Source of the DNA: Sphagnum compactum
Taxonomy: Eukaryota
DNA length: 64,000 bases
Reading direction: 5' to 3'
NCBI GenBank assembly: GCA_965153455.1
Contig: OZ234493.1
Location: 19,582,213-19,646,212 of the forward strand
The notes beneath the pieces are model-generated. The model saw only the letters and a list, made by a program, of their open reading frames with translations. It did no database searches and was not told the DNA's origin. A program made the translations under genes and the position numbers. Positions 3,031 to 51,202 of the stretch are shown here, one piece after another; within the stretch, counting starts at the first letter, position 1; each line of letters opens with the position of its first letter.

Positions 3031-3340
3031 AATCTCTCATACGTTAAATATGACTCAGCTTCGAAGAGCCCCAAAACCACCCTGAGTCTTTTCGTCTTCT
3101 CCCCGCTTGCACGTCCTTTAAAGAAGATCACAATTCATGCTGTCGCAATTCGCGCATCGCACTGAAGAATCGACAAGTTTCTCGGGTTTTGGTAGCAGTT
3201 TTCGACTGGATTTTAGTGGGATTTCTCCTCTTTTGATTCGTAAGAGGAAGTCTTCTTTCAAAGTTTGTTATCTTGTTGAGTTGGAGTTCGGATTGGTGAG
3301 AGGAGGGAGGCGGAGGAGGAGGATTGGAGCGCTCCCAGCA

Positions 3341-5070
3341 ATGGAGGATGGGTTGTATTTGACGAGTAAGGAAATCAGTCACGGAGGTCGAATCCCACGC
3401 AAGTTTACGCAGGATTCACAGGGAATTGTGGAGGATGGGTTGTATTTGACGAGTAAGGAAATCAGTCACGGAGGTCGAATCCCACGCAAGTTTACGCAGG
3501 ATTCACAGGGAGCTGTGAAGGACATATCACCCCCTCTGGAGTGGTATGGTGTGCCTGAAGCCACTCAGAGCTTAGTTGTTATCATGGAGGATCCTGATGT
3601 GCCTGAACCTGAAAACCCTATTGGAGTTCCTTGGGTCCACTGGTAAATATTTCTCAGTACTCTTCTGTCATGATCTCTGGCTATAGCCATCGTAATATAA
3701 CCATATTTGTGTAAATCTGCAAACTGTGTCGTGTGTCGTGTGTGTACCTCATGAATTCTTTGCATGTTTGCCTTTGATTTTGCTTGGCATTGATCTCTTG
3801 CTTACCATCCTGTGCAATGTACTCTAGTCTTGTATCAAAGATTTGTGATGGTTAGGTCATTGGGCATGGTGGTGAAGTCTACATTGCAACCTGAATTTTT
3901 TTCCTCATTCTAGTATGTTGTAGTGTTTCAGAGCTGCCACAAAGTTGATGAGAAAAAAGGGGAAAAACTAGTAGGATTTCATTTTAAAATGGCTTCTGGG
4001 TTTTTTCTCTCTTGTGTTGTTGTGCAGGGTAGTGGTCAACATTCCGCCTACACTGAAAGGTGCATCAATCCTTGAGGATCTTCCCCCCCCATTGTTGATG
4101 ATGCATGTTGTGTTGAGATGTATAGTTGTACTACAGAACCCAGTTCTGTGTTTGGCAAAGAATGCTTAGGCAATTTTGTGCCTTGGTTGAGCTATATATT
4201 GGGGTATTGTCTTTGTTGCAAACAAGGGAAGTTTGTGGAGTCTTGAAATCTCTACAACTGAATTGTTACATTTCTGCTTCAGGTCACTTAGTAATTTCAT
4301 GTGCCTTAAGGTCCCAGCAAGCCAAACACCATAACAGGTAATGTTGGTGAGACATGGAATATGATGTGAGAAATTATTTGGGTTCTGATTGTGGAGTTTG
4401 TGATGACGCAGGTTTGCCAGCAGGTTTCACTACAAAAGAGGTAGATAGTGATCATGATGATGAATTTGGAGAAATTCTGGAAGGGGTGAATGACTTCAAG
4501 GTGCCTGGATACAAGGGGCCGAATCCTCCTGCAGGACTTCATCACTACAGCATTAAGCTCTATGCTCTTGACACCAAGCTAAAAGTTAGCCGCAAGGTAA
4601 TTTACCCATCTCTTCTCTCACTCCCTGAACCCACAAGCATCTGGCTAATCATGTCAGACATAATTCAGCATGTTTAAGAGCTCAGTTTAGTATCAAGGTC
4701 ATGGGTAGATTAGGTATAATGTGGAATCTTAATCTCTGGCAACGGCATTGATCTGTGACTAGCAATGTCTGAGATCTATATATGTGAAATTAATTGGTTC
4801 CAATTTCCAAGCTCTGCATGCTGATTTATGCTGCTGACTATTTCTTTGTTTTTATCTGAATGCAATGTACAGCCCTCACGGGACAAAGTGTTGGATGCCA
4901 TGAGTGGCCATATTTTGGATGAAGCAGAACTCATAGCAACTTACGGAAAGGAACATCATCCAACAGGTCATCATGAAGGTGATGCTCCTCATGGAGCTTT
5001 TTCAGGGCATTCAGAGGGGAAGGGTGGTGGGAAGGGTGGTGGTAACACAATGGGTCAATTGCACCGTTAA
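3341..5070 (+). CDS. PEBP family protein, bacterial-like YbhB/YbcL type (4 exons)
   Basis: Exons 3341-3642, 4028-4059, 4412-4596, 4873-5070 join in frame via GT-AG introns. Motifs: ISPPLEW, MEDPDVP, PWVHWVVVNIP, EGVNDF, GYKGPNPP, HHYSIKLYALD, GHILDEAEL. Confidence 0.92.
3342..3511 (+). repeat. Perfect in-frame tandem duplication (period 87 bp) in PEBP exon 1
   Basis: 83 identical bases at 3342-3424 and 3429-3511; EDGLYLTSKEISHGGRIPRKFTQDSQG occurs twice. Confidence 0.95.
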
Positions 5071-8000: not shown

Positions 8001-8307
8001 AAGTTGTTCTTACCGGGTACCCTCCGGGTATCACAAAAGGCATCCGGAAGGCCCTCGGGTGCGGCCATTACACTTAGTGTGTGACGGTCACCTAGTACGA
8101 GAGCGGCGGGTAGTCCCAGGATATCGACGGTCACTGGCGGAACATATATATATCCATTTTGGGACTATTGACACGTGAGTCGCCACTTCTGTGGATCGAT
8201 CTTCCTTTATAGGCCACTCTGGTTACAAACTCGTAAAGAACAGATATCAGCCGTGGATTCCATCACCCTGACTGACACTCTTACTACTTGTAACCGTCCA
8301 TGGTCTC

Positions 8308-8318
8308 GATCCGCGTCA
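8308..8318 (-). promoter_or_regulatory. Plant histone octamer element (CGCGGATC) upstream of the H3.3 gene
   Basis: GATCCGCG at 8308-8315. The minus strand reads TGACGCGGATC, one mismatch from the type II element TCACGCGGATC. It lies upstream of the putative non-coding first exon. Confidence 0.55.
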
Positions 8319-8882
8319 AAAGGAATTTTCCACATGCAGTCCGCGTCCCCCACCAGTCCCAAGAAAATCGAATCCGTCCATTCTTCACAATAACCCCATC
8401 CACAGCGTTCAATTTGAAACAAAATTTGATTTCGAAAATTTTAGCTAAAAGAAGCTACCAAACGGGTAGCCGCATGATTGAGATCTTTTCCTGGCCGTTC
8501 GATATACAGACATCGGAATATCTCGTCCGTCAGAAGGACAGGTTTTCAGGGCCGTCGATGGTAGTTGGGGGGCCGGTAGAATTGCCATCTGACGACGTGG
8601 ATCGTGCGAACTCTGCATCGGGACCGTCGAATCCGGGACAGAATCACTCAAGAGAGACGGGGGAAGCCGGGCGTCTCTTACATTCTCTCTTTTGTTTTGC
8701 TTGTTGTTTTGCTGCAAACCCTCGCTGCTTCTCTCATTCTTGTCTTCGCCGTTGTCTATACATACTACTGCCTTCTTCTTTTCCTTTTTCTTTTGTGCAT
8801 ATCTCGACATCGTGTTTTGTGACTTGTGATCATCGCCGTATCGTCTCGCGAAGAAAGGGACATCATCATCATCACCCTGAAG

Positions 8883-10855
<1,973 letters not shown>

Positions 10856-10896
10856 GCTGTAATTCTGAAGAATTTCAAAAAAAAAACTCAAAAATC

Positions 10897-10929
10897 AATA
10901 AAAAAAATCGGGTTCTTTTGAACCCACCA
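10897..10929 (+). terminator. AATAAA followed by a histone-type 3' stem-loop
   Basis: AATAAA at 10897-10902; GGGTTC-TTTT-GAACCC at 10910-10925 (perfect 6-bp stem, 4-nt loop); ACCA at 10926-10929; A-rich 5' flank; 54 nt after the stop codon. Confidence 0.7.
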
Positions 10930-13900
10930 AAAACTGTTTGTTTGGCCTGCGTCTTCTTTGATTTGAATTCCTTTTGTGCTTGCAGTGGTGAATTCCTTCA
11001 AAGCATGTGTAGTTTATTGGAAAGTTCATTTTCCTATTGTTTAGGATTCAGTTAATTTGAGCAATCACCTGAAATTCTTGTTCAGTGATGAAGACTTGTA
11101 TTACCATATCCACCATTGAAGGGAATTATATGAGAGCAGTTTAGTGTTTGATTGTCGAATGGAAATGTGTCGAATCACCTATGTGAACCGTCCCTCACCA
11201 AACATGGGCCTATCACCTAATGCTTCCCAATATTGAGCAATTTTTGAGTTATTGGACGGGCAACAGAAGGTTTACAAATGTTCTTTTGAGTGTTTAGAAG
11301 TAAAAGAGCAACACAGAAAACATGAAAAGAGAATGATAGTTTGCCTCAATTTATATGGAAAACTATCTGTAGACCTCTCTATTTCCAGCCCCATATCTTA
11401 AATCCAAGATTATATGCTTGAAATCTTGATTTGTTTTAATTAACCCATCACTGAATACTGAACCCATTTACACCGAACACCATTCCTGTAATGAATTCAG
11501 CAATTTTTGTGTAGTTAGAATTGCTAGGTGGGACAGTTACAAATGCTCGTAGAGCTTCAGTAGCAGAGGAACAATGTGTGAGATTAAGAACCCAATGTGT
11601 GAAAATTGGGTTCACAAATCTGGATTGCGTCCCTTGAATCCACATGAAATATTATGAAAATTTATGAAGTTGTGAGGAAGTGACAGTTATTTTATGGCTT
11701 CTCAACTGAAGCAAAGGAAGTTTATGTAAATTGTAAATCAAAATTGCACGGATCCCATTCTTCTATAACAACCAAAGATCAGCCAAATGTGCTGTTCAAA
11801 GTTTGTACCTATGCTCCATGATTTTTTGGGGATTTCTGTTAAGGGTTTGGTAATCGTGTCTGATAGACCTGAAATCAGTTTGGTGTGTCAAACTATGTAT
11901 CAGACCAACTTCCTTGTCTCCCCAACATTGCTGTCGGGTAAGAGAGATTTGGTGGACCTTAAAGAATTTCATTTAAAGGTTGTGCACATATAAGAAGGGG
12001 GCAACGACCAACTACTTATTGGATAAGTACAGACAATAAGTAGTCTGTATCCCAAGGACGTCAAATGAAATGACCCGCTAAAACCATCAACCCAAGCTCT
12101 AGACATCCAGAGACAAATTCTTTGTGAATCTTCCAAAATTGGGACCATCAAAATTGGGACCATGTTTAGATAAAAAATGTCATGCCAATATAGAAATGGA
12201 TGCATCCAAAGTAAATTCAATTGTTGAAATATCAACTATGTCATTTTGAAAATTTTGATTGAATATGTTCAACTTTGCCAAAACATCGACCACAAGATGA
12301 AGCATGAATTGAAATTGAATTTGCAAGGTTGTAGCTTGGCGATGTTAATAGGCCTCAAATTTTTAAAAAAAATCCAATATGGTTGGCATACAAAATCCAC
12401 TCCAACACTCGACCCCCAAAAAAACAATGCATTAAAGGGGTGGGCAGGCAATGGGTTTGGAGCTCTAACTATTATCTAACTTACTATTAAACTATTAATC
12501 TTATAATTGTTATTCTAATATTTACACATTTAGAGTATTGTCTTTATGTGAAGATTCCATTAAACTTGTAATATTCAAATTTGATAGGTCAACACAATAT
12601 TTATTTTTCTTTTGACATGGTTTTTTTAGATGCCTTTTTTGTGACAAATAGTTTTTGACTTTTTCCTTTCTTTTGATATGCCAAATTTTGATTTTACTTT
12701 TTTTTTTCTTTTCTTTTTGCTTGTGATAGTTGCAAAAAAAACCTTCATTGAGTGGTCACCCTATATTCTAATTTCATAAAATTAATTAAAAAACTCATCT
12801 ATTTATGCAATGTCAATGCCTATGCCAAATACATTTTTAAGTGTTTTGTAATTTCTTTGTCTTGTGCTTGTTGCCATTAATAACCATCTAACCATGATGA
12901 CATATTTCATGTAACACTTGGCTAACACAAATTACACTTTAACCATTTATTTTTAGCTCAAAAGCATATTTAAATGTGTTGAAGACCACATAATATATGT
13001 TCTCCCCACATATGGATGTATTTAATTCATTGCTCCTGTTTAGTGTTTGCTTACATTGTCAATGTGGCATGATTAATGGAGTGATTGATTACATGTTGCA
13101 TGCATTAATTTGGAACCTCACACCTTGAACAAGGTAAAAAGACCTTTAAACATTGTTGAACTTTAATCACACCTTATTTTTGTCTCCTATAATTGTTCAA
13201 ATCTTTTGAGAATGTAATGAATGGTTTCGGGTTGTTTTAAAAGTCACACGATATGATTGAAATTGTGATTAAAAAAGTAGGATCCACTTGTTTTGGATGA
13301 TTTAAAATGTTTTTTAAGATGACAACCTTTTTGTTTAGAGTGTTTTGGTAAGTGGTTTAAAAATACCCAAATTCTTAAAGGCTAACTTTTCTTCCCTTCT
13401 CAATGCCTTTCAAATCCAACTCATTTAATATATCAATTTGAGCACATGTGGTTTTAATTTTAGGATCTTTGTTGATTGTATAAAAAACCCTTTTTTGGAA
13501 GGTATTAGGATCCTTGTTACAACACATTAAAACCCTCATTTGGAGATTTTGAGGTATTAATAGGACCACTCAAAAAAGATGCTACTCACCGTTTTAAAAA
13601 CCCCCAATATATATATATTTTCAAGAATTCATAACTAATTGAAAAGAAGTTCAAAAAATTTCAAACTTGGGTTGAGTTTCAAATTGTTTTGTCTTTAATG
13701 GAAAAATAAAAGTACAAGAAAATTGGACTTTGATTTACTCATTATGCTTATTTTGATAGTTCTAGAATCTTCTACCTTGTTTTCATGGCTTGTTTGAAAG
13801 TTTCATTGATAAGGAGAAATGAATAAAGGGCTACCAATAAGTCACAATTATGTTACAAATCACTTTAGTGGGGAAACAAAGGAATTACATTAATAAAATA

Positions 13901-17297: not shown

Positions 17298-19262
17298 ATG
17301 GGCGATGGGGGCGAATCAGAATGGGATTCAGCTACTTCTCATAGGTCGAACTTGCGGGGTAAATTCAAGGAGCAGATCAGAAGATTAAAATGGACCAGAG
17401 TCAATAGAGGCAGAGGCCGCAAATTAGGCACTGCCTGCTTGAGTTTCAGACAGCGTTGTCAGCCTGGTTCTAGTAGTCGCTTAAGCTCAGATTCTCCGGA
17501 AGCCGGGAAAGCTCCAATTTGTAGAGCAAACGAAGCTTCAGATCAGTCTGTAGTGCTACCGAGACTTCACTCTGATGATAGAGGAAAGCGCATTGATCAA
17601 CTCGAGAACAACATAGAGGAGTACTGTGGCGAAGTATCGTGTCTTCCAGCAAATGCAGATGGCACAAATCCTAATTCTCGGGTTCTTGAAAGATGTGGTA
17701 ACAGGGAGGAGACAGCGAATTGCAGCTTGGTTAATCAGATCGTGGGCTGTCATGATTCTCCGATCCTTCATGGAAGTTCCGGCAGTCGAGGGCCAGGGGA
17801 GGAGAAAATCAACGGAATCCGACAGCAGAATAACAAATGGGTAGTTGAGATGCGGGTGGCAGGGAAGGAGAAGCAGCACTTACTGGGGTTCAAACGAATC
17901 TGGCTGGGCACCTACTACACATGGGATGAAGCTGTTCGTGCTCGCGACGTGGGTGTGTTCTATTGCGGCAAAGAGCCTCGCCGCTACTTCTCTCCTGCTT
18001 ATATACCCTTTCTCCCTTCCCTAGAGACACTCATTGTCTCTAGAGAACCTGACAAAATTTCAGCAAGCATAAAAGCTCTCGCTGCGAAGAACTCGACAAA
18101 GCCAGACTTGGGTACCTCTGGTGCTCCTCCTTGCAGTCATCTCTGTCATTCCTGCGCAGCAGCTCAGGTACTGCAGCCCCAGACCATATCACACACAGAT
18201 AATGGTCTCGCTAGTTTGCATCAGGCTCAGACTGAAGGCTTCAAACACTTCCAGGATGTGGATCAAGATCGAAGAGCAGAAGGTGCCCTTCCCCAGGATC
18301 AGCTTGATCAAGCTCAGAGGGATATGGAACAAGCTCAAAGAGCAGCCTGCGCCATTCCCCAGGATCTTGAACATGTTCAGAGGAATATGCAGGATCAAGC
18401 TCGAAGAGCAGCCTATGCCATTCCCCAAGATCTTGATCATGCTCAGAGGGCTATGGTTCCCACTCCACAACAAGCCTTCCCAAATGCAAAGGAACTGGAT
18501 CAATATCAGAACCCACTGTATGATCAGAGAGGTAATGCACAAACCCTAGAAGGTGAAGCTCAAGATCTGGATCAACTAGCCTTGACAAACGTGTTGCCTG
18601 AGGCCACTACCGAGGAAGAAGATTGTGGCTATGGCTGGGACGTCATGGACCATGTCCTCAGACACATGAGTTGCAGTGCATCTGATCAGAATATTGGGGA
18701 TCAATGTAGAAATTTTGTAGATGATTTTGAAGTAGACTACTGGGCTCAGTGGGAAGACCAGAGAAATGGGTGGGAGTTAGGTTTGCTGGATCCATGTGAG
18801 ACTGCGAAATTTGAGATGGGAAATTCATGGCAATATTGCCAATTTGCATCAGGTTCAGTTGTTGGAGCTCTCATGAATCAAGTTGAAAAAGAAGACCATG
18901 CATCAAATTGCATCTTTCCACTTGTGCCTCCGATTTCAGATAGCACAACTGCATACAATAATGTAGATGGATCAAATTGTGTCATTCCACATTTTCTGGC
19001 TCAGATTTCAGATTGCACAACTGAATACAATAGTGCACAGAAAGAAGCTCATGGTCAGAGTTTTGGGGATCATGTGTTTGAATCTGATCAGATGGAAAAT
19101 GGGAGTGAAGACTGTAGACGTTCACCTGGGCTTCGAGAGACAGATTGGAGAATGGACCTTGTGCAGGGTTTGGATCAGATGCAATTTTTTTCACCCTTAT
19201 GGGATGAATTGAATGAGCCAGATTTCGAGCAGGCATACATCAAATGGTTGTCAAATCAATGA
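17298..19262 (+). CDS. Single-exon AP2/ERF-domain transcription factor-like protein (654 aa)
   Basis: Long ORF. AP2 domain at ~17805-17996: INGIRQ...KWVVEMR...RIWLGTY..WDEAVRARDVGVFYCGK. Acidic C-terminus ending FFSPLWDELNEPDFE. Confidence 0.85.
   Translation: MGDGGESEWDSATSHRSNLRGKFKEQIRRLKWTRVNRGRGRKLGTACLSFRQRCQPGSSSRLSSDSPEAGKAPICRANEASDQSVVLPRLHSDDRGKRIDQLENNIEEYCGEVSCLPANADGTNPNSRVLERCGNREETANCSLVNQIVGCHDSPILHGSSGSRGPGEEKINGIRQQNNKWVVEMRVAGKEKQHLLGFKRIWLGTYYTWDEAVRARDVGVFYCGKEPRRYFSPAYIPFLPSLETLIVSREPDKISASIKALAAKNSTKPDLGTSGAPPCSHLCHSCAAAQVLQPQTISHTDNGLASLHQAQTEGFKHFQDVDQDRRAEGALPQDQLDQAQRDMEQAQRAACAIPQDLEHVQRNMQDQARRAAYAIPQDLDHAQRAMVPTPQQAFPNAKELDQYQNPLYDQRGNAQTLEGEAQDLDQLALTNVLPEATTEEEDCGYGWDVMDHVLRHMSCSASDQNIGDQCRNFVDDFEVDYWAQWEDQRNGWELGLLDPCETAKFEMGNSWQYCQFASGSVVGALMNQVEKEDHASNCIFPLVPPISDSTTAYNNVDGSNCVIPHFLAQISDCTTEYNSAQKEAHGQSFGDHVFESDQMENGSEDCRRSPGLRETDWRMDLVQGLDQMQFFSPLWDELNEPDFEQAYIKWLSNQ
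18250..18480 (+). repeat. Coding tandem repeat, ~21-aa units, in the AP2 gene
   Basis: ALPQDQLDQAQRDMEQAQRAAC / AIPQDLEHVQRNMQDQARRAAY / AIPQDLDHAQRAM; DNA core CCC(C)AGGATC..GATCAAGCTC. Confidence 0.85.
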
Positions 19263-27090: not shown

Positions 27091-27507
27091 CTTGTTATAG
27101 ATTTGTGGATGGTGGGGCTTCGACAAGTGTCACATTCAAACCAAGACACACAAGCATCAATTGAGTCTTACCATGGGGCATTGAAACGTTGGTTCTCTTT
27201 GGAAACAAAATGGCTTCAAGGTCGACGACTTGATTGGTTAGTGTGGAGACTCACGACAACAGTTGCAATACATGCACACAACTAAAATGAAGAAACACAG
27301 GTTCATAAAAAAAAGGTTGTGGAACGCATTGTGAAAACAAATGTTGAAAAGGCCACATTGATCCCTCACACCAATGTCACCCATGGGATAGATGATTCGA
27401 ATGAAACTGGCCATGCATGGATGGTACGAAGCCAACAACATTTGAATATGACATATAAGGTCCCACTTCTTTTCACTAAGTATGCTTGTTGCACATGTGA
27501 ATGGGCG

Positions 27508-30000
27508 TGTGAGAAATTCTTGCACTCCTTCCACATGAAGATATGCACTCACAGACTCACTTGAGGGTGGAATTACTATGTAGTTGTATTCTAACAAGTT
27601 AAGGTGGTTCAATGTAATGTAATGAAATTCATTAATAATCTCATGCGTTGTGTTCACTTGGAAGATACCAAAACATTGTGGGAGAACCAAAACTCACCAT
27701 GATGGAATGTGAAGGAACATTATGTTGAGGTTAAATCCATGTTCACGCTTGATGATTGAATCCCCTTCGTTCCATTCGTCACAATATCCTCATACAACCT
27801 CCTAGTCTAACATGCATTGGGTTTTCGAAAAGCTAATATTAAAGGAGCAATGTTACAAAGTATTAGAAGTTTTTATTTCTGAAATCAAGAATTATGCCTC
27901 GAAACAAAGAAACTAATTTGACCAAATTTGAGGAAAAAACAGACAATTTCAACCCCCTCTACTTCCGGCAAGTGTAGCTTCCGTGCAGCAAACCCGATGA
28001 TGCTGAAATTTTGGGAGAACCTTTTACACCTCCTAAACTGAAACTGTTCAAAGTTTGAAACAAATCCAACGGTGGATTTGAGAGGAAAAACTATTTTAAA
28101 TAAGAATCCACAGGCTTGTTCATGGAAATCCTTCCATGAACCCCACTACAACTACTTGCCACACACAACTTCCTTCCATGCTCTTTTGTTTGCACACATT
28201 TTTTTTTCATGAACAACACTTTCTCACACATAAGAACTAATTCTTCTCTCACACACTCATTCTCTTCTTTTTTCCTCCGAAAAACACACAAGATACCACT
28301 TTCTTTGGTAAGCCTCCCATACCCCCTCCTTGAGCTTATTCTCCTTGTCCAATGGAAGTTTTGAAATCTTTCCCTCCAATTAATGGCCTCCTCATCCTTC
28401 ATGAACCAACGAGAGTCCAGAATGATTTTTCTTTTCTATGGAATTTAAGATGAGAATCATTATGCCCAATGAAACACTAAAAATGTTCTATTTTCTAATC
28501 AAATAGGATGATAATCCTCATGACCAATGGAATTGGAGGATTCATCCTTTTCCTTATCTTAAACATCTTGATGGGGTTCTTGAGCTCAATCATTGTCAAT
28601 TTCGTCCGTTTGAATTAACATCCTATTTCTTCATCCTAATTATTCTAAGTAACTAAATATTGGGATAATTTACTAGTAGTAATAAGTAACCATCCTTGAG
28701 CTTCCATTTGATTAAATCAACTCAACGGTAGTAATAACCTTTTCGTGTACCATTTACTCTTTTAATATTCCCTAGTTATTTTTTACTGTGTACTAAATAA
28801 TTATGTAGTACATAGTAAATTAGAATTAAATTTGGAATTACAAGGATTCCCATGTACTTCTAGATCCACCATCAATATTAAGGCTTCACGAATTTGTTGG
28901 AACTAAGATGTCCGGGTTTTCACGAAGTTCTGCCGTCATTGCCACGCCTTATGCCTACCCTAATCTCTTGAATAAAAGCAACGACCCCCTTCGAATGTAA
29001 ACGCTAAATTGTTTTGGCTACCTTTCGGTTTTTGTTGATGCATGTGAAAATTTAGTCATGGCGGATGATGTTGCTACGCCCTCGAATCCTCCAATTGCAC
29101 CAATAGAAAATGAAGAGCTTGAAGAAGCACCGCTTGACGTAGCATCACTTGACATGAATATCTTTCAACGGTCGCGTGAAAAAGAACCGTCCAGAAGAGT
29201 GGTGCGCATTCGAATCGATCGTTTGGCATGGGATCGTCGATTGTCTCCTAACCCACATGCTTTAGCAATTTATTTAGAATTTGTTCCTGCTCGTGGAACT
29301 GCGCCAGAAAGGTTTAAAGAGTGTCAATGTAAACACGACGATGTTCGTCTTCATTGTCGAACTTGGGTTCCTGGTGATGGCCATTATCATTGGCCACGAG
29401 GCCCAATCAACCCCCTTTCCATGGAGCATCGAACCGAATACCTAGCTTGCACCATTCGTCGCATTCAGGATTTTTTGCAATTGTCATCTATCCCCTCTAA
29501 GTCGTTTACTAATTTGTAATTCACCTGAGGCTACTCAGGTGAAAATGTTAATACTTGAGTTTGATTTTGATTCTATTTAAGAATCTGATAGAAGTGAAAA
29601 CTAAAAAAAGATGTATTGGGACTGCATCCTAGAAATCTTACAAGTACATCATTAATGTTTGAAGATTATTCTACAGACTAATTTAATATTGTCATGGCAA
29701 AATGTTAATGTTAGTTATGGGCTTGTATTCCCAATATATTAGTAAAATCAAATCTAATTCTACATCCTTTTTCACCTCTCTACAACCTAAAAGGATAATG
29801 CACTTTAAAAGGTTTACGTAGGTCCTAAAATTAACTAAACGTTACATCATCTTAAATAAAGAAGTTCTCTACACTTGGAAATATCCAAAGGCTAATTCAC
29901 CTATTAATAATTATTATTTGGAGGTTTATAAGGATTCAAATCATTATTACTAAGGAAAGTTATGGAACTAAAGCTTAACAATTTGTTGAATTATAATCCA
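27508..30000. mobile_element. 2.5 kb LTR-like insertion nested in the SWIM domain
   Basis: TG...CA ends flanked by TGGGCG (27502-27507, 30001-30006). Removing it restores E-W-A-L-R-G-N-L-C-K-H. Segment 27508-28924 has LTR-like TGTGA...TCAC(G) ends. Confidence 0.75.
29058..29519 (+). CDS. Hypothetical 153-aa protein inside the nested insertion
   Basis: Intact ATG-to-stop ORF, more GC-rich than its flanks, acidic N-terminus and Cys/His cluster (CQCKH...HC...HYH). No family recognised. Confidence 0.4.
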   Translation: MADDVATPSNPPIAPIENEELEEAPLDVASLDMNIFQRSREKEPSRRVVRIRIDRLAWDRRLSPNPHALAIYLEFVPARGTAPERFKECQCKHDDVRLHCRTWVPGDGHYHWPRGPINPLSMEHRTEYLACTIRRIQDFLQLSSIPSKSFTNL

Positions 30001-32790: not shown

Positions 32791-34297
32791 TTATTCCTCC
32801 TCCGAGGATGAACTAAAAGGAATGCCCATACTGGTGCGATATTCTGCTGAAATTTTTACAGCTTTTGCTGCATGGTGATGAGTAAATAGTTGACGATGTT
32901 CAAGCACAAGTTGAATTGCATTTGCAACAAAAGCTCCCTTGTTGTGCCCCGAAGCCTAACACAAGAAAACAAAAAAACAAATTACATTCCAATGTTAAGA
33001 TGCAAACAATGTTTATATATATATATATATATATATGGAAATATATCGCCCATGAATGATTTCAGAATCATGATACTTGGATATTGCATCCATTTCTTTT
33101 ACTCGGTTACATTTACTAGATTCCAATGTCTAATTCTGAGTGCTTCATGCAACTTTCAAAGGCTTTGCATAAGCAACTTTGCTTGCCCGAATTGTCTCAA
33201 CAAGGTTCTCGCCCTTTTCAAGGCGTGCCCATGCACTTTGTGGGATGAACCCACCCCCCATGCTGGAATCCCAATGATGCCCAACAAGATTTTGGAGGCT
33301 AAAAGTACCAACAAAGGCCGTTTAACTTGTTCCATTTGTTGCGCTTGGGTTTGGAGTTCATCCCATTCTAAAGTTTTTTTTTTCATTATATCGAAAGCTT
33401 TCTTTTCATTCCGCTTTCGCCTTGCATGTGGGTTGCTCAAAATTTGAGCATTCATAGCATGGTGATTTTGTTGCCTTGGTCCCCCAACACGAGTAGAAGG
33501 ACCCAGATTTGCCTACCTCCATGTGAAGCCCGTGTTTGTTGTCCAAATGCTGACGAAGTAACCATTTAGTCACATAAGCGTTGGTTCATCCATTGATCTT
33601 ACACTTCCACCTTGACCTTTTGTGCACCCATTTTGCATATTCCATTACATGATTTGGTGGTACTTCTACTTGATCATTTTCATGTGAAGCCACCGGAGCC
33701 CCTACAAGAACAACATTCAAAATCAAACCAGAAAATAGTCCTTAATAATGATGAAAGTATTGCAAACAAGCTAACAATAAAAACTTACAAAATATGAAGG
33801 TATTGCAAATAGACCAGCAAGAAAACCCTACACAATATGAAGGTATTGCAAATAAATTAGCAAGAGATTTTTAAAAATATGGAGGCATTACAAACTAGCA
33901 AATAAACATTAAATACAAGGAGGGCATTGCAAATAGGCTAGAAATTAAAACCTTCAAACAATAGGGATATTGCTTGGAAAAAATTGGGCAAACAAATACC
34001 CCATCCCCATTTTCAAATAAAGAATGAAGATGGGGTTTAAGGTTTGGATTGGGATTTTTTATTCGTAATGTGTTGCATTACACTATTAAAAACCCTATCA
34101 TGTGAAATGTATCATCCATCACAACAAATTTACTTTCAAAAATAGGAGTGGGATTAAGGTTTACCTTCAAAAGTAGGAGTATAGATGATAATTTTTTTTT
34201 CCACTTCAATTTCCTCTTCATTTGCTACAACATTCACTTGTTGATTATCAACAGTCACCTTTTTTTGGCGTTTAAGTTTCTTCCAGGGATGTGCCAT
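32791..34297 (-). pseudogene. Second MULE gene: 3-exon C2H2 zinc-finger protein, convergent with the transposase, decayed
   Basis: Exon 1 34297-34165 (MAHPWKKLKRQKKVTVDNQQ...TPTFE, phase-1 GT) joins in frame to exon 2 from 33701 (GAPVASHE...WKCKING*TNAYVTKWLLRQHLDNKH...NPHARRKRNEKK...). Exon 3 32955-32791 is open (ASGHNKGAFVANAIQLVLEHRQ...SSSSEEE*). Stop at the second Cys position; frameshifts in exon 2. Confidence 0.72.
33745..33980 (+). repeat. ~43-bp tandem repeat in intron 1 of the zinc-finger gene
   Basis: ATGAAGGTATTGCAAA-like cores at 33756, 33799, 33842, 33884, 33923, 33966. Confidence 0.8.
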
Positions 34298-50368: not shown

Positions 50369-50593
50369 GTAGCCTATACACCTAGCGAGAGTCTGTTTTT
50401 GTGCTTTTGGCGAGAGTCACTAACTTTCAGTTACAGCTGCTATTATTAGTGTCTTTGGGAGAACCTAGCTGGGTCATTGTACAAGAATTCCGTGTTTGCG
50501 ATATTCTTGTTCTGGTCGAGTGTAAGAGGGTTGTGTATCTGTAGTGTAACTTTTATAAATCCCACGAAGGAGTCTTGTTTCCAGCTTTCGAAG

Positions 50594-51202
50594 ATGGTAG
50601 ATGCGGGAAGAGAAAACTGGAACCCTTCTGGATCCGAGCAGCGTAAATGCAAAGAGAAGCTGAAGCAGTTGCTGCAAGACGCCGTCATTGCGAGCACTGA
50701 GGAGCCGGACCGTAGTGTCTGTACATCCAGACTGCATCTGTGTGGTCACGTTGCTTCAAGTTCAGATTCTCACGAGGCCGGAGTCGATCCAGATTTAGTT
50801 GGAGGATCTCTCCTGCAAGTAGACGATCCGCCAAATGACGGGCCTCAGGCGCCTGCTGAAGAAGATGCTCACTTTGATCTAGATCACGGTCTCAGCAAGG
50901 AGCTGCGAGCGGTTGATTGGGACCTAGAAGCCTGGGGAGATCTCGCAAACGAATGTAAGAAACGTGCCGGCAAAGGTCCCGATGACTTGAGGGTCCACAC
51001 TCCGAAAGGTGACTGTGCCGACGTCTGGAGTGCCTCATGTACTCGAAAAAATGAGCGAGGAGGCCCGAGTACAGTTGCTGCTGCTGAACCTCCAAAAGGA
51101 GAGAACGTTGAAGAATTTTCAAGCCTTGCGATGGGAGGCAGAGGGAACAAGCCGGACGCCAGTCAGTTTGGGAGGATCAACAACTGCGTCCATTTCTCAT
51201 GA
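50594..51202 (+). CDS. Hypothetical 202-aa acidic protein (orphan)
   Basis: GC-elevated open frame from ATG 50594, preceded by acceptor-like TTGTTTCCAG. No known domain; N-terminus resembles that of the AP2 protein. Confidence 0.55.
   Translation: MVDAGRENWNPSGSEQRKCKEKLKQLLQDAVIASTEEPDRSVCTSRLHLCGHVASSSDSHEAGVDPDLVGGSLLQVDDPPNDGPQAPAEEDAHFDLDHGLSKELRAVDWDLEAWGDLANECKKRAGKGPDDLRVHTPKGDCADVWSASCTRKNERGGPSTVAAAEPPKGENVEEFSSLAMGGRGNKPDASQFGRINNCVHFS

What the first reader, a model, noticed from the sequence alone, without database searches (positions are those of the whole stretch)
10897..10929. Animal/algal-type histone stem-loop in the 3'UTR of an intron-containing land-plant H3.3 gene
Seen: AATAAAAAAAATC-GGGTTC-TTTT-GAACCC-ACCA, 54 nt after the stop. 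It has a 6-bp stem opening with two G-C pairs, a 4-nt U loop, an A-rich 5' flank and an ACCA 3' flank. Established: this is the geometry and position of the SLBP-bound hairpin of replication-dependent histone mRNAs in animals, also found in green algae and some protists, whereas flowering-plant histone mRNAs are polyadenylated and considered to lack it, and animal H3.3 genes lack it. Deviations: stem position 3 is G, the closing pair is C-G rather than U-A, and I see no purine-rich U7 downstream element. AATAAA sits 7 nt upstream, so poly(A) cleavage could fall right after the hairpin. Inference: a retained or hybrid stem-loop plus poly(A) 3'-end system in a bryophyte. I cannot exclude that it is already reported for non-flowering plants.
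Basis: partly seen in the sequence, partly recalled or inferred. Interest (0 to 1): 0.8.

Follow-up and report, generated by a model that had tools for sequence, protein, structure and literature searches.

The report
Histone stem-loop on a moss H3.3 gene
A moss gene for the "replacement" histone H3.3 carries, just after its stop codon, the same small RNA hairpin that marks animal and algal replication-type histone messages; such hairpins are already known in mosses, but this type of gene was excluded from the one survey of plant histone message ends that I read.

Summary
GGGTTC-TTTT-GAACCC-ACCA lies at 10910-10929, 54 nt after the stop of an intron-containing plant H3.3 gene, with AATAAA 7 nt upstream.

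It is not a chance hairpin. A covariance model built only from 43 hairpins behind H3 genes of other eukaryotes scores it 29.9 bits, E 2.7e-6 over the whole 64 kb. The next hit scores 14 bits. The Rfam Histone3 model gives only 18.6 bits against a threshold of 34.

The hairpin is unchanged in a 92.7%-identical orthologue and in four sequencing runs. These are close relatives, so there is no covariation to read.

In a poly(A)-selected run, 7 of 11 molecules end at 10933, right behind the hairpin. Others run on to about 11114 and beyond.

[quoted passage not shown] That survey removed intron-containing H3 genes.

Verdict: a genuine histone-type stem-loop and a new member of a known kind. It probably gives this H3.3 gene two modes of 3'-end formation. 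SLBP binding and cell-cycle coupling are inferred, not shown.

The parts
8800..8883 (+). Probable first, non-coding exon (5'UTR). The start is approximate; the donor GTATGT begins at 8884.
   Evidence: Inferred. The donor is read. A spliced RNA contig of run X3 carries 322 nt upstream of exon 4, which is 240 nt of exons 1-3 plus 82 nt of 5'UTR. Only 7 nt lie between the acceptor at 9984 and the ATG.
8884..9984 (+). Probable 5'UTR intron. It is T-rich and holds an internal repeat of about 240 nt.
   Evidence: Inferred from donor and acceptor and from the 82-nt 5'UTR of the X3 contig. The repeat shows as cross-matches 8905-9206 and 9147-9427.
9992..10063 (+). H3.3 coding exon 1
   Evidence: The four spliced exons give a 136-aa H3.3; tblastn segments match.
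10207..10283 (+). H3.3 coding exon 2 (holds T31 and Y41)
10418..10508 (+). H3.3 coding exon 3
   Evidence: In run X24, 576 reads carry the end of exon 3 as loose letters before 10683, which shows the exon 3-4 splice.
10685..10855 (+). H3.3 coding exon 4 with stop TAA at 10853-10855 (holds H87 and L90)
10897..10902 (+). AATAAA, a candidate poly(A) signal 7 nt before the stem and 27-31 nt before the proximal RNA ends
   Evidence: Sequence; spacing to the ends at 10929-10933. Its role is inferred.
10902..10909 (+). A-rich 5' flank of the stem-loop (AAAAAATC)
   Evidence: Aligned to the model consensus. T at 10908 reads C in L003, X1 and X3.
10910..10925 (+). Histone-type stem-loop: 6-bp stem, 4-nt U loop
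   Evidence: Identical in L003. For X24, X1, X3 and X18, one search lists no difference here, but its difference table is cut (26 rows not shown).
10926..10933 (+). 3' flank ACCA plus A run; proximal RNA 3' end
   Evidence: ACCA is the commonest 3' flank of the comparison set, 13 of 43. In run X24, 7 of 11 molecules end at 10933.
10934..11114 (+). Distal part of the 3'UTR, up to a second RNA end near 11114
   Evidence: In X24, 5 molecules end at 11114; all share one start and may be copies of one molecule. Identity to L003 is about 98% up to 11114 and 83% over 11115-11450. RNA contigs of X1 and X3 run on past 11300.

Best explanation
[quoted passage not shown] It is retained in the 3'UTR of a moss intron-containing H3.3-type gene.

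It sits 7 nt behind an AAUAAA. Ordinary cleavage and polyadenylation, and any SLBP-guided cleavage, would therefore both cut at the ACC-A just behind the stem.

The gene makes at least two kinds of message. A short one ends directly behind the hairpin (10929-10933). Longer ones read through it to about 11114 and further.

Most likely SLBP, which the literature reports in mosses, binds the hairpin on the short form. That would give this H3.3 message a share of the processing, translation or stability control used for replication-type histones. The poly(A) routes would supply replication-independent expression. Animal H2AX (from recall) and a moss H2B gene (in print) work in a comparable dual way.

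Shown: the sequence and structure match, the position, invariance in close relatives, and RNA ends behind the hairpin together with read-through.

Inferred: SLBP binding, whether the proximal ends are tailed, and any link to S phase.
For: 1. Family match from an independent model. Model R1 was built from 43 hairpins found no more than 100 nt behind H3 stop codons in metagenome contigs of other eukaryotes; the orthologue L003 was left out. It scores 10902-10933 at 29.9 bits, E 2.7e-6, over 64 kb on both strands with filters off; the next hit is 14.0 bits. The 43 training hairpins score 22.6-41.9 bits. The model also finds 46 further hairpins in those loci that were not used for training.
2. Rfam Histone3 is the best family in the local search: 18.6 bits, E 0.017 on 401 nt.
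3. Diagnostic positions. G-C at stem pairs 1 and 2 is shared with 43 of 43. U at loop position 1 is shared with 37 of 43, and at loop position 3 with 42 of 43. The AC that follows the stem is shared with 39 and 40 of 43. ACCA is the commonest 3' flank, 13 of 43.
4. Position. It lies 54 nt after the stop. The comparison set spans 14-84 nt, median 31, and 13 of 43 lie at 50 nt or more.
5. Stability: -10.1 kcal/mol, with 0 of 200 shuffles as stable.
6. RNA. In poly(A)-selected run X24, 7 of 11 molecules end at 10933. Depth falls from about 10 to 2.5-6 behind the hairpin. Five molecules end at 11114. A spliced contig of X3 and a contig of X1 pass through the hairpin to beyond 11300.
7. The hairpin is identical in orthologue L003, which is 92.7% identical over 3,989 columns. 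No difference inside 10910-10929 is listed for any of the four runs.
8. Context in print. Mosses have SLBP, RF00032-type stem-loops and poly(A)-less histone mRNAs, and one moss H2B gene makes both forms (PMC13130582). A preprint reports that bryophyte stem-loops keep the G-C pair and the loop U.
Against: - Rfam's own threshold is not met: 18.6 against 34 bits. There is no hit at gathering level.
- All relatives in hand are close. Introns are 94-98% identical between the window and L003, so the hairpin's invariance shows no selection and there is no compensatory change.
- No other histone gene lies in the window and no genome is held. I could not show that this moss uses the same hairpin on its other histone genes, or that it has SLBP or U7.
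- G at stem position 3 occurs in 0 of 43 comparison hairpins, and a C-G closing pair in 1 of 43.
- No purine-rich downstream element follows the hairpin.
- The RNA-end evidence is thin: 7 and 5 molecules, from a run of a somewhat different strain or species, and the 5 may be copies of one molecule. Ends seen in a poly(A)-selected library argue for tailed rather than stem-loop-terminated messages.
- None of the 8 other plant H3.3-type loci from metagenomes has such a hairpin. Their taxa are unknown.
Confidence: 0.6

Rival explanations
1. Inherited relic. The hairpin descends from a real histone stem-loop, either from an ancestral H3 gene or through gene conversion with a replication-type copy. 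It no longer does anything in this gene. All 3' ends are made by the ordinary poly(A) machinery, with AAUAAA at 10897 for the proximal site and other signals for the distal ones.
For: - AATAAA lies at the right distance (27-31 nt) from the proximal ends, and those ends were seen in a poly(A)-selected library.
- Much RNA reads through the hairpin.
- There is no downstream purine-rich element.
- Conservation among close relatives is no better than in the introns.
Against: - A perfect 6-bp stem with all diagnostic positions and both flanks intact would decay quickly without selection.
- Mosses still have SLBP and use such hairpins (PMC13130582), so a perfect site in an abundant histone mRNA would be bound whether or not that is 'intended'.
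Confidence: 0.2
2. Protein-independent structural element. The stable hairpin just before the cleavage site works without SLBP. It could present the poly(A) site, or block 3'-5' trimming so that short-tailed messages survive.
For: - It is very stable, at -10.1 kcal/mol.
- It lies between AAUAAA and the observed ends.
Against: This does not explain why the flanks (A-rich 5' side, ACCA 3' side), the GG start and the U loop all match the SLBP-binding consensus.
Confidence: 0.12
3. Chance hairpin in an A/T-rich 3'UTR, with no relation to histone stem-loops.
For: - It falls below the Rfam gathering score.
- The 105-nt 3'UTR fold as a whole is unremarkable, z -1.35.
Against: - E 2.7e-6 with an independent model over the whole window.
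- It is the only hairpin of its type in 128 kb of both strands, and it lies 54 nt behind the only histone gene.
Confidence: 0.03

Closest known systems
Stem-loops of replication-type histone genes in moss (Physcomitrium patens), fern and cycad, with SLBP (PMC13130582, Genome Biol 2026; preprint 10.64898/2026.10.14.759114)
   Same: Same lineage (moss) and same kind of element, a 6-bp/4-nt hairpin of RF00032 type close behind a histone stop codon. [quoted passage not shown]
   Different: That survey removed intron-containing H3 genes as H3.3 (methods passage), so this gene class was not examined. I could not see their hairpin sequences: figures are not held and supplements are closed. Likeness to the moss consensus is therefore untested.
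Metazoan replication-dependent histone mRNA 3' stem-loop (Rfam RF00032) with SLBP and U7 snRNP
   Same: 6-bp stem starting with two G-C pairs; a 4-nt loop with U at positions 1 and 3; an A-rich 5' flank; ACC(A) 3' flank; a position tens of nt after the stop.
   Different: It scores below the Rfam threshold (18.6 against 34 bits). It has G at stem position 3 and a C-G closing pair. There is no purine-rich downstream element. The host gene has introns and encodes H3.3, whose animal genes lack the hairpin (recalled). An AAUAAA sits directly upstream.
Animal H2AX gene, which makes both a stem-loop-ended and a longer polyadenylated mRNA (recalled, not read here); also polyadenylated forms of replication-type histone mRNAs in differentiated tissue (PMC5100578, seen in search listing and start of abstract only)
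   Same: A histone variant gene with a hairpin-proximal end plus read-through to downstream poly(A) sites, as the reads and contigs here suggest.
   Different: In H2AX the proximal form is known to be poly(A)-less and SLBP/U7-dependent. Here the proximal ends were seen in a poly(A)-selected library, and an AAUAAA precedes the hairpin.
Stem-loop plus poly(A)-signal configuration at histone genes of early-diverging fungi (preprint 10.64898/2026.10.14.759114, passages of section 13 seen)
   Same: A hairpin and a poly(A) signal or tail coexist at one histone 3' end, read there as an intermediate state.
   Different: A different kingdom and core histones. In the quoted example the signal lies downstream of the hairpin; here AAUAAA lies upstream of it.

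Membership tests
Histone mRNA 3' stem-loop (RF00032 kind) | 6-bp stem and 4-nt loop, all Watson-Crick | tested here: met
   (-10.1 kcal/mol; the structure holds 0.987 of the ensemble).
Histone mRNA 3' stem-loop (RF00032 kind) | G-C at the first two stem pairs. [quoted passage not shown] | tested here: met
   GG...CC here; 43 of 43 comparison hairpins share it, though they were selected for it.
Histone mRNA 3' stem-loop (RF00032 kind) | U at loop positions 1 and 3 | tested here: met
   The loop is UUUU. In the comparison set, 37 of 43 have U at position 1 and 42 of 43 at position 3.
Histone mRNA 3' stem-loop (RF00032 kind) | A-rich 5' flank and AC(C) 3' flank | tested here: met
   AAAAAAUC before the stem and ACCA after it. 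AC follows the stem in 39 and 40 of 43; ACCA is the commonest flank, 13 of 43.
Histone mRNA 3' stem-loop (RF00032 kind) | Lies within about 100 nt behind a histone stop codon | tested here: met
   54 nt here; the comparison set spans 14-84 nt, median 31.
Histone mRNA 3' stem-loop (RF00032 kind) | Reaches Rfam's gathering score | tested here: not met
   18.6 against 34 bits; 10 downstream model columns are deleted in the alignment. No hit at gathering level. The same library at E up to 10 also missed the identical hairpin of L003 in a 23.7-kb search, so the model is insensitive to this form.
Histone mRNA 3' stem-loop (RF00032 kind) | Significant match to an independent covariance model of H3 stem-loops | tested here: met
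   R1 gives 29.9 bits, E 2.7e-6; the training range is 22.6-41.9 bits.
Histone mRNA 3' stem-loop (RF00032 kind) | Metazoan stem consensus: pyrimidines at 5' stem positions 3-6 and a U-A closing pair | tested here: not met
   G at position 3 occurs in 0 of 43; a C-G closing pair in 1 of 43. This feature defines the animal consensus, not the wider family.
Histone mRNA 3' stem-loop (RF00032 kind) | Covariation (compensatory changes) among homologues | tested here: inconclusive
   Only close relatives were found (L003 at 92.7% and four runs), and all show the same hairpin.
SLBP/U7-dependent histone 3'-end processing system | SLBP gene (PF15247 domain) in the same genome | not testable with these tools
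   No genome is held. The literature reports SLBP in P. patens and Sphagnum magellanicum.
SLBP/U7-dependent histone 3'-end processing system | Purine-rich downstream element pairing with U7 snRNA | tested here: not met
   The 40 nt after ACCA are U/G-rich after the A run. No U7 hit in the window at gathering level. The genome could not be searched.
SLBP/U7-dependent histone 3'-end processing system | Mature mRNA ends a few nt behind the stem without a poly(A) tail | tested here: inconclusive
   7 of 11 molecules end at 10933, but in a poly(A)-selected library. The run of genomic A hides the exact cut and any tail.
Plant H3.3 (replacement H3) gene | H3.3 signature residues T31, Y41, H87, L90 (recalled), coding-region introns and a 5'UTR intron | tested here: met
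   Translation and three coding introns. The exon 3-4 splice is shown by 576 reads. The 5'UTR intron is inferred.

The most novel reading that the evidence does not exclude
In mosses the stem-loop/SLBP pathway may not be confined to intronless replication-type genes. The intron-containing H3.3 gene would itself be a dual-mode gene, in which an AAUAAA and the hairpin aim at the same cleavage point. Its short message would end in a stem-loop carrying a short or regular poly(A) tail. That would be a living intermediate of the shift from stem-loop to poly(A) histone messages on the way to flowering plants. It would also mean that the split between replication-dependent and replication-independent H3 expression is drawn differently in bryophytes than in animals and angiosperms.
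Probability: 0.3. Interest if true: 0.6.

Novelty: new member of a known kind. Interest (0 to 1): 0.4.

Why it matters
When and how plants replaced the stem-loop end of histone messages with poly(A) tails is an open question that was taken up only in 2026. The one survey of plant histone mRNA ends that I read set H3.3-type genes aside.

A stem-loop on a moss H3.3 gene, placed so that the poly(A) signal and the hairpin share one cleavage point, gives a concrete locus for testing two things. One is whether the two 3'-end systems coexist on a single message. The other is whether SLBP control in bryophytes extends to a variant that animals and flowering plants express without it.

Existing long-read data could be re-analysed to check this.

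Tried and rejected
- Whole-genome search for other stem-loops, SLBP, Lsm10/11 and U7: not possible, because no genome is held.
- Other histone genes in the window: none. tblastn with the H3.3 protein and a scan with short recalled motifs for H4, H2A and H2B found only this gene.
- Rfam at gathering level on the window: 0 matches.
- Rfam at E up to 10 on six plant-type loci (23.7 kb): 4 unrelated matches and no Histone3 hit, not even for L003's identical hairpin. I then built my own model.
- Deep orthologues. The single metagenome scan returned 80 H3 loci, of which only L003 is an orthologue, and a close one. The other 8 loci with H3.3-type residues (L001, L004, L005, L006, L009, L012, L013, L017; L009 and L012 have the same downstream sequence) have no hit at E up to 1. 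Neither do L008, L024, L025, L074, L057 and L065. Their taxa are unknown, so this says only that the hairpin is not a general feature of plant-type H3 genes.
- Exact search for the 19-nt hairpin core in prokaryote genome contigs, looking for stray moss contigs: 0 matches.
- Earlier notes of this scan: nothing on this genome, nothing by words, and only algal and viral H3 notes by sequence.
- Lopez and Samuelsson 2008 could not be read. I know its content only from how the preprint cites it.
- Contig layout in run X18. Two upstream versions, with 3 and 12 differences, both end at 10939, and one downstream contig starts at 10910. This suggests a more diverged copy that shares the hairpin block. 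The differences may instead be misalignment in the A-rich tract, so I give it no weight.
- Supplements and figures of both papers, which hold the moss stem-loop sequences and gene lists, could not be seen. They may already list an H3.3 hairpin.

Full report
**What is in the sequence**

The window holds one histone gene. Four exons (9992-10063, 10207-10283, 10418-10508, 10685-10855) splice to a 136-aa protein with the plant H3.3 signature T31, Y41, H87, L90; the signature itself is recalled. In run X24, 576 reads carry the end of exon 3 as loose letters before 10683, which shows the last splice.

A spliced RNA contig of run X3 carries 82 nt of 5'UTR, while only 7 nt lie between an acceptor at 9984 and the ATG. 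A non-coding first exon ending at a GTATGT donor at 8884, followed by a 1.1-kb 5'UTR intron, is therefore likely (inferred).

The stop is at 10853-10855. After 54 nt comes GGGTTC-TTTT-GAACCC (10910-10925), then ACCA and four more A up to 10933. AATAAA lies at 10897-10902.

**Is it more than chance?**

- Each strand of the window has 64 perfect 6-bp/4-nt hairpins, and two per strand start with GG. Only this one also has U at loop positions 1 and 3.
- The 26-nt element folds at -10.1 kcal/mol, and 0 of 200 shuffles fold as well. The 105-nt 3'UTR as a whole is unremarkable, z -1.35, although both the minimum-energy and the centroid structures keep the hairpin.
- Rfam's Histone3 model is the best family locally, but with 18.6 bits against a threshold of 34 (E 0.017 on 401 nt). 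It gives nothing at gathering level. The alignment loses 10 downstream model columns.
- The same library at E up to 10 also failed to list the identical hairpin of orthologue L003 in a 23.7-kb search. The Rfam model is thus a poor judge of this form.

**An independent test**

Of these, 463 encode a relative, and the best 80 loci were kept.

Leaving out L003, 43 of the other 79 loci have a perfect GG...CC 6/4/6 hairpin no more than 100 nt behind the H3 stop. The distances span 14-84 nt with a median of 31.

I aligned these 43, with 8 nt of flank on each side, and built model R1. With filters off, over the whole window on both strands, R1 scores 10902-10933 at 29.9 bits, E 2.7e-6. The next hit has 14.0 bits, E 0.17, and 18 matches reach E 10.

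The 43 training hairpins score 22.6-41.9 bits. The model also finds 46 more hairpins in those loci that were not used for training, out of 89 matches at E 0.01 or better.

Position by position, the window's element shares:
- the GG/CC pairs (43 of 43, by selection);
- U at loop position 1 (37 of 43) and at position 3 (42 of 43);
- A and C right after the stem (39 and 40 of 43);
- the commonest 3' flank, ACCA (13 of 43).

I conclude that it belongs to the histone stem-loop family in the wide sense, though not to the narrow animal consensus.

**Relatives**

L003 is an orthologue, 92.7% identical over 3,989 aligned columns. It has the same hairpin at 53 nt after the stop and C for T at 10908.

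Run X24 holds raw reads, and runs X1, X3 and X18 hold contigs. All four cover the hairpin, and none has a difference listed inside 10910-10929. Differences are listed around it at 10861, 10862, 10864, 10875, 10876, 10908, 10951, 10984 and 10996. That table is cut, with 26 rows not shown.

These are all close relatives. Introns are 94-98% identical between the window and L003, so the invariance carries no weight as evidence of selection, and no compensatory change can be seen.

None of the other 8 loci with H3.3-type residues, and none of 6 loci with other plant-like H3 residues, has an R1 hit at E up to 1. The hairpin is thus not a general feature of plant-type H3 genes, but the taxa of those loci are unknown. 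An exact search for the core in prokaryote genome contigs found nothing.

**RNA ends**

Labels of the runs that hold the stretch say moss or plant metagenome.

In X24, a poly(A)-selected library of a slightly different strain or species (most reads are 90-99% alike), 7 of 11 molecules end at 10933. Depth drops from about 10 to 2.5-6 behind the hairpin. Five molecules end at 11114, all from one start, so they may be copies of one molecule.

The run of A at 10929-10933 hides the exact cut and any tail. The tool allowed one lay only, so I could not look closer.

A spliced 1,113-nt contig of X3 (a random-primed metatranscriptome) and a 582-nt contig of X1 pass through the hairpin beyond 11300. Read-through messages therefore exist.

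Identity to L003 is about 98% up to 11114 and 83% over 11115-11450, which fits a main distal end near 11114.

The proximal ends lie 27-31 nt after AATAAA, a normal spacing for a poly(A) signal (established knowledge, recalled).

**How it most likely works**

The hairpin and an upstream AAUAAA aim at the same point. The gene makes a short message ending just behind the hairpin, and longer messages in which the hairpin is internal.

Mosses are reported to have SLBP (see the next section). A perfect site in an abundant histone message is therefore likely to be bound, giving this H3.3 gene a share of stem-loop control beside ordinary polyadenylation. I put this at 0.6.

The rivals are:
- a relic with all ends made by the poly(A) machinery (0.2);
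- a protein-independent structural role at the cleavage site (0.12);
- chance (0.03).

SLBP binding, the tail status of the short form and any link to S phase are inferences.

**What is known**

PMC13130582 (Genome Biol, March 2026; passages, section 6) reports the following:
- RF00032 stem-loops in 33 of 51 such genes;
- SLBP in those lineages, but not in Selaginella or angiosperms;
- a moss H2B gene that makes both forms.

Its methods state that H3 genes with introns were removed as H3.3.

The preprint 10.64898/2026.10.14.759114 (abstract; sections 12, 5, 27 and 8; passages) reports SLBP in mosses, naming Sphagnum magellanicum. It also reports that bryophyte stem-loops keep the G-C pair and the loop U. 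It does not mention H3.3 (0 occurrences). Its detection rule is loose: any 6/4/6 hairpin with one mismatch within 300 nt.

According to the preprint, Lopez and Samuelsson 2008 had already found SLBP in a moss. I could not read that paper.

Three searches looked for a stem-loop on a plant H3.3 gene:
- 'histone, stem-loop, moss, polyadenylat, H3.3': 9 papers;
- six terms at a minimum of 3: 861 papers, unspecific;
- 'H3.3, SLBP, land plants': 1 paper, PMC13130582 itself.

None gave a report of it. Figures and supplements of both papers were not visible and may hold one.

**Verdict**

Its family is known, and it was already described in mosses. The host gene class, an intron-containing H3.3, and the AAUAAA-hairpin arrangement are not described in the texts I could search and read.

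It is a new member of a known kind and of moderate interest. Its value is as a test locus for how the two 3'-end systems coexisted in early land plants.

Noticed in passing
window 8308-8315: GATCCGCG is the reverse of the octamer CGCGGATC, which I recall as typical of plant replication-type histone promoters. It occurs once in the whole window on both strands. It lies about 490 nt upstream of the presumed start of the H3.3 transcript, next to CCGTCC at 8294, and is conserved in L003. If real, it would be a second replication-type feature on this H3.3 gene. The motif is recalled, and the distance is rather large.
   Followed up: partly
window 8905-9427: An internal direct repeat of about 240 nt (roughly 71% alike) lies inside the presumed 5'UTR intron. 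It shows as crossed matches of 8905-9206 and 9147-9427 to L003.
   Followed up: no
window 11115-11450: Identity to orthologue L003 falls from about 98% (10856-11114) to 83% just where five reads end at 11114. RNA contigs of X1 and X3 nevertheless run on past 11300.
   Followed up: partly
window 3137-3646 (+): The C-terminal 55 residues of this ORF match the phosphatidylethanolamine-binding protein family (PF01161, E 2.9e-12), probably one exon of an FT/TFL1/MFT-like gene.
   Followed up: no
window 17298-19262 (+): A 654-aa open reading frame with no Pfam match at E 0.001. The other long ORFs (8300-8911, 8445-8948 on the minus strand, 27238-27690 on the minus strand, 29058-29519, 32890-33447, 50477-51202) also have none.
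   Followed up: no
L001:1178-1588: This metagenome-collection contig carries a plant H3.3 coding sequence with the exon junctions already joined, so it looks like cDNA. It is 81-86% identical to the window's exons and has no stem-loop behind its stop.
   Followed up: partly
L045, L058, L002, L038, L030, L069 and other loci: Several metagenome contigs hold three to six stem-loop hits each on both strands. This is the picture of histone gene clusters of algae, protists or animals. The high-GC loci L007, L010, L072 and L077 share the core GGTGTT...AACACC.
   Followed up: no
window 10802-10939 in run X18: Two contigs, with 3 and with 12 differences from the window, both end at 10939, and a single contig starts at 10910. 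Two upstream versions seem to join in the 30 nt that hold the hairpin. This could be a diverged copy that keeps the hairpin, or misalignment in the A-rich tract.
   Followed up: no
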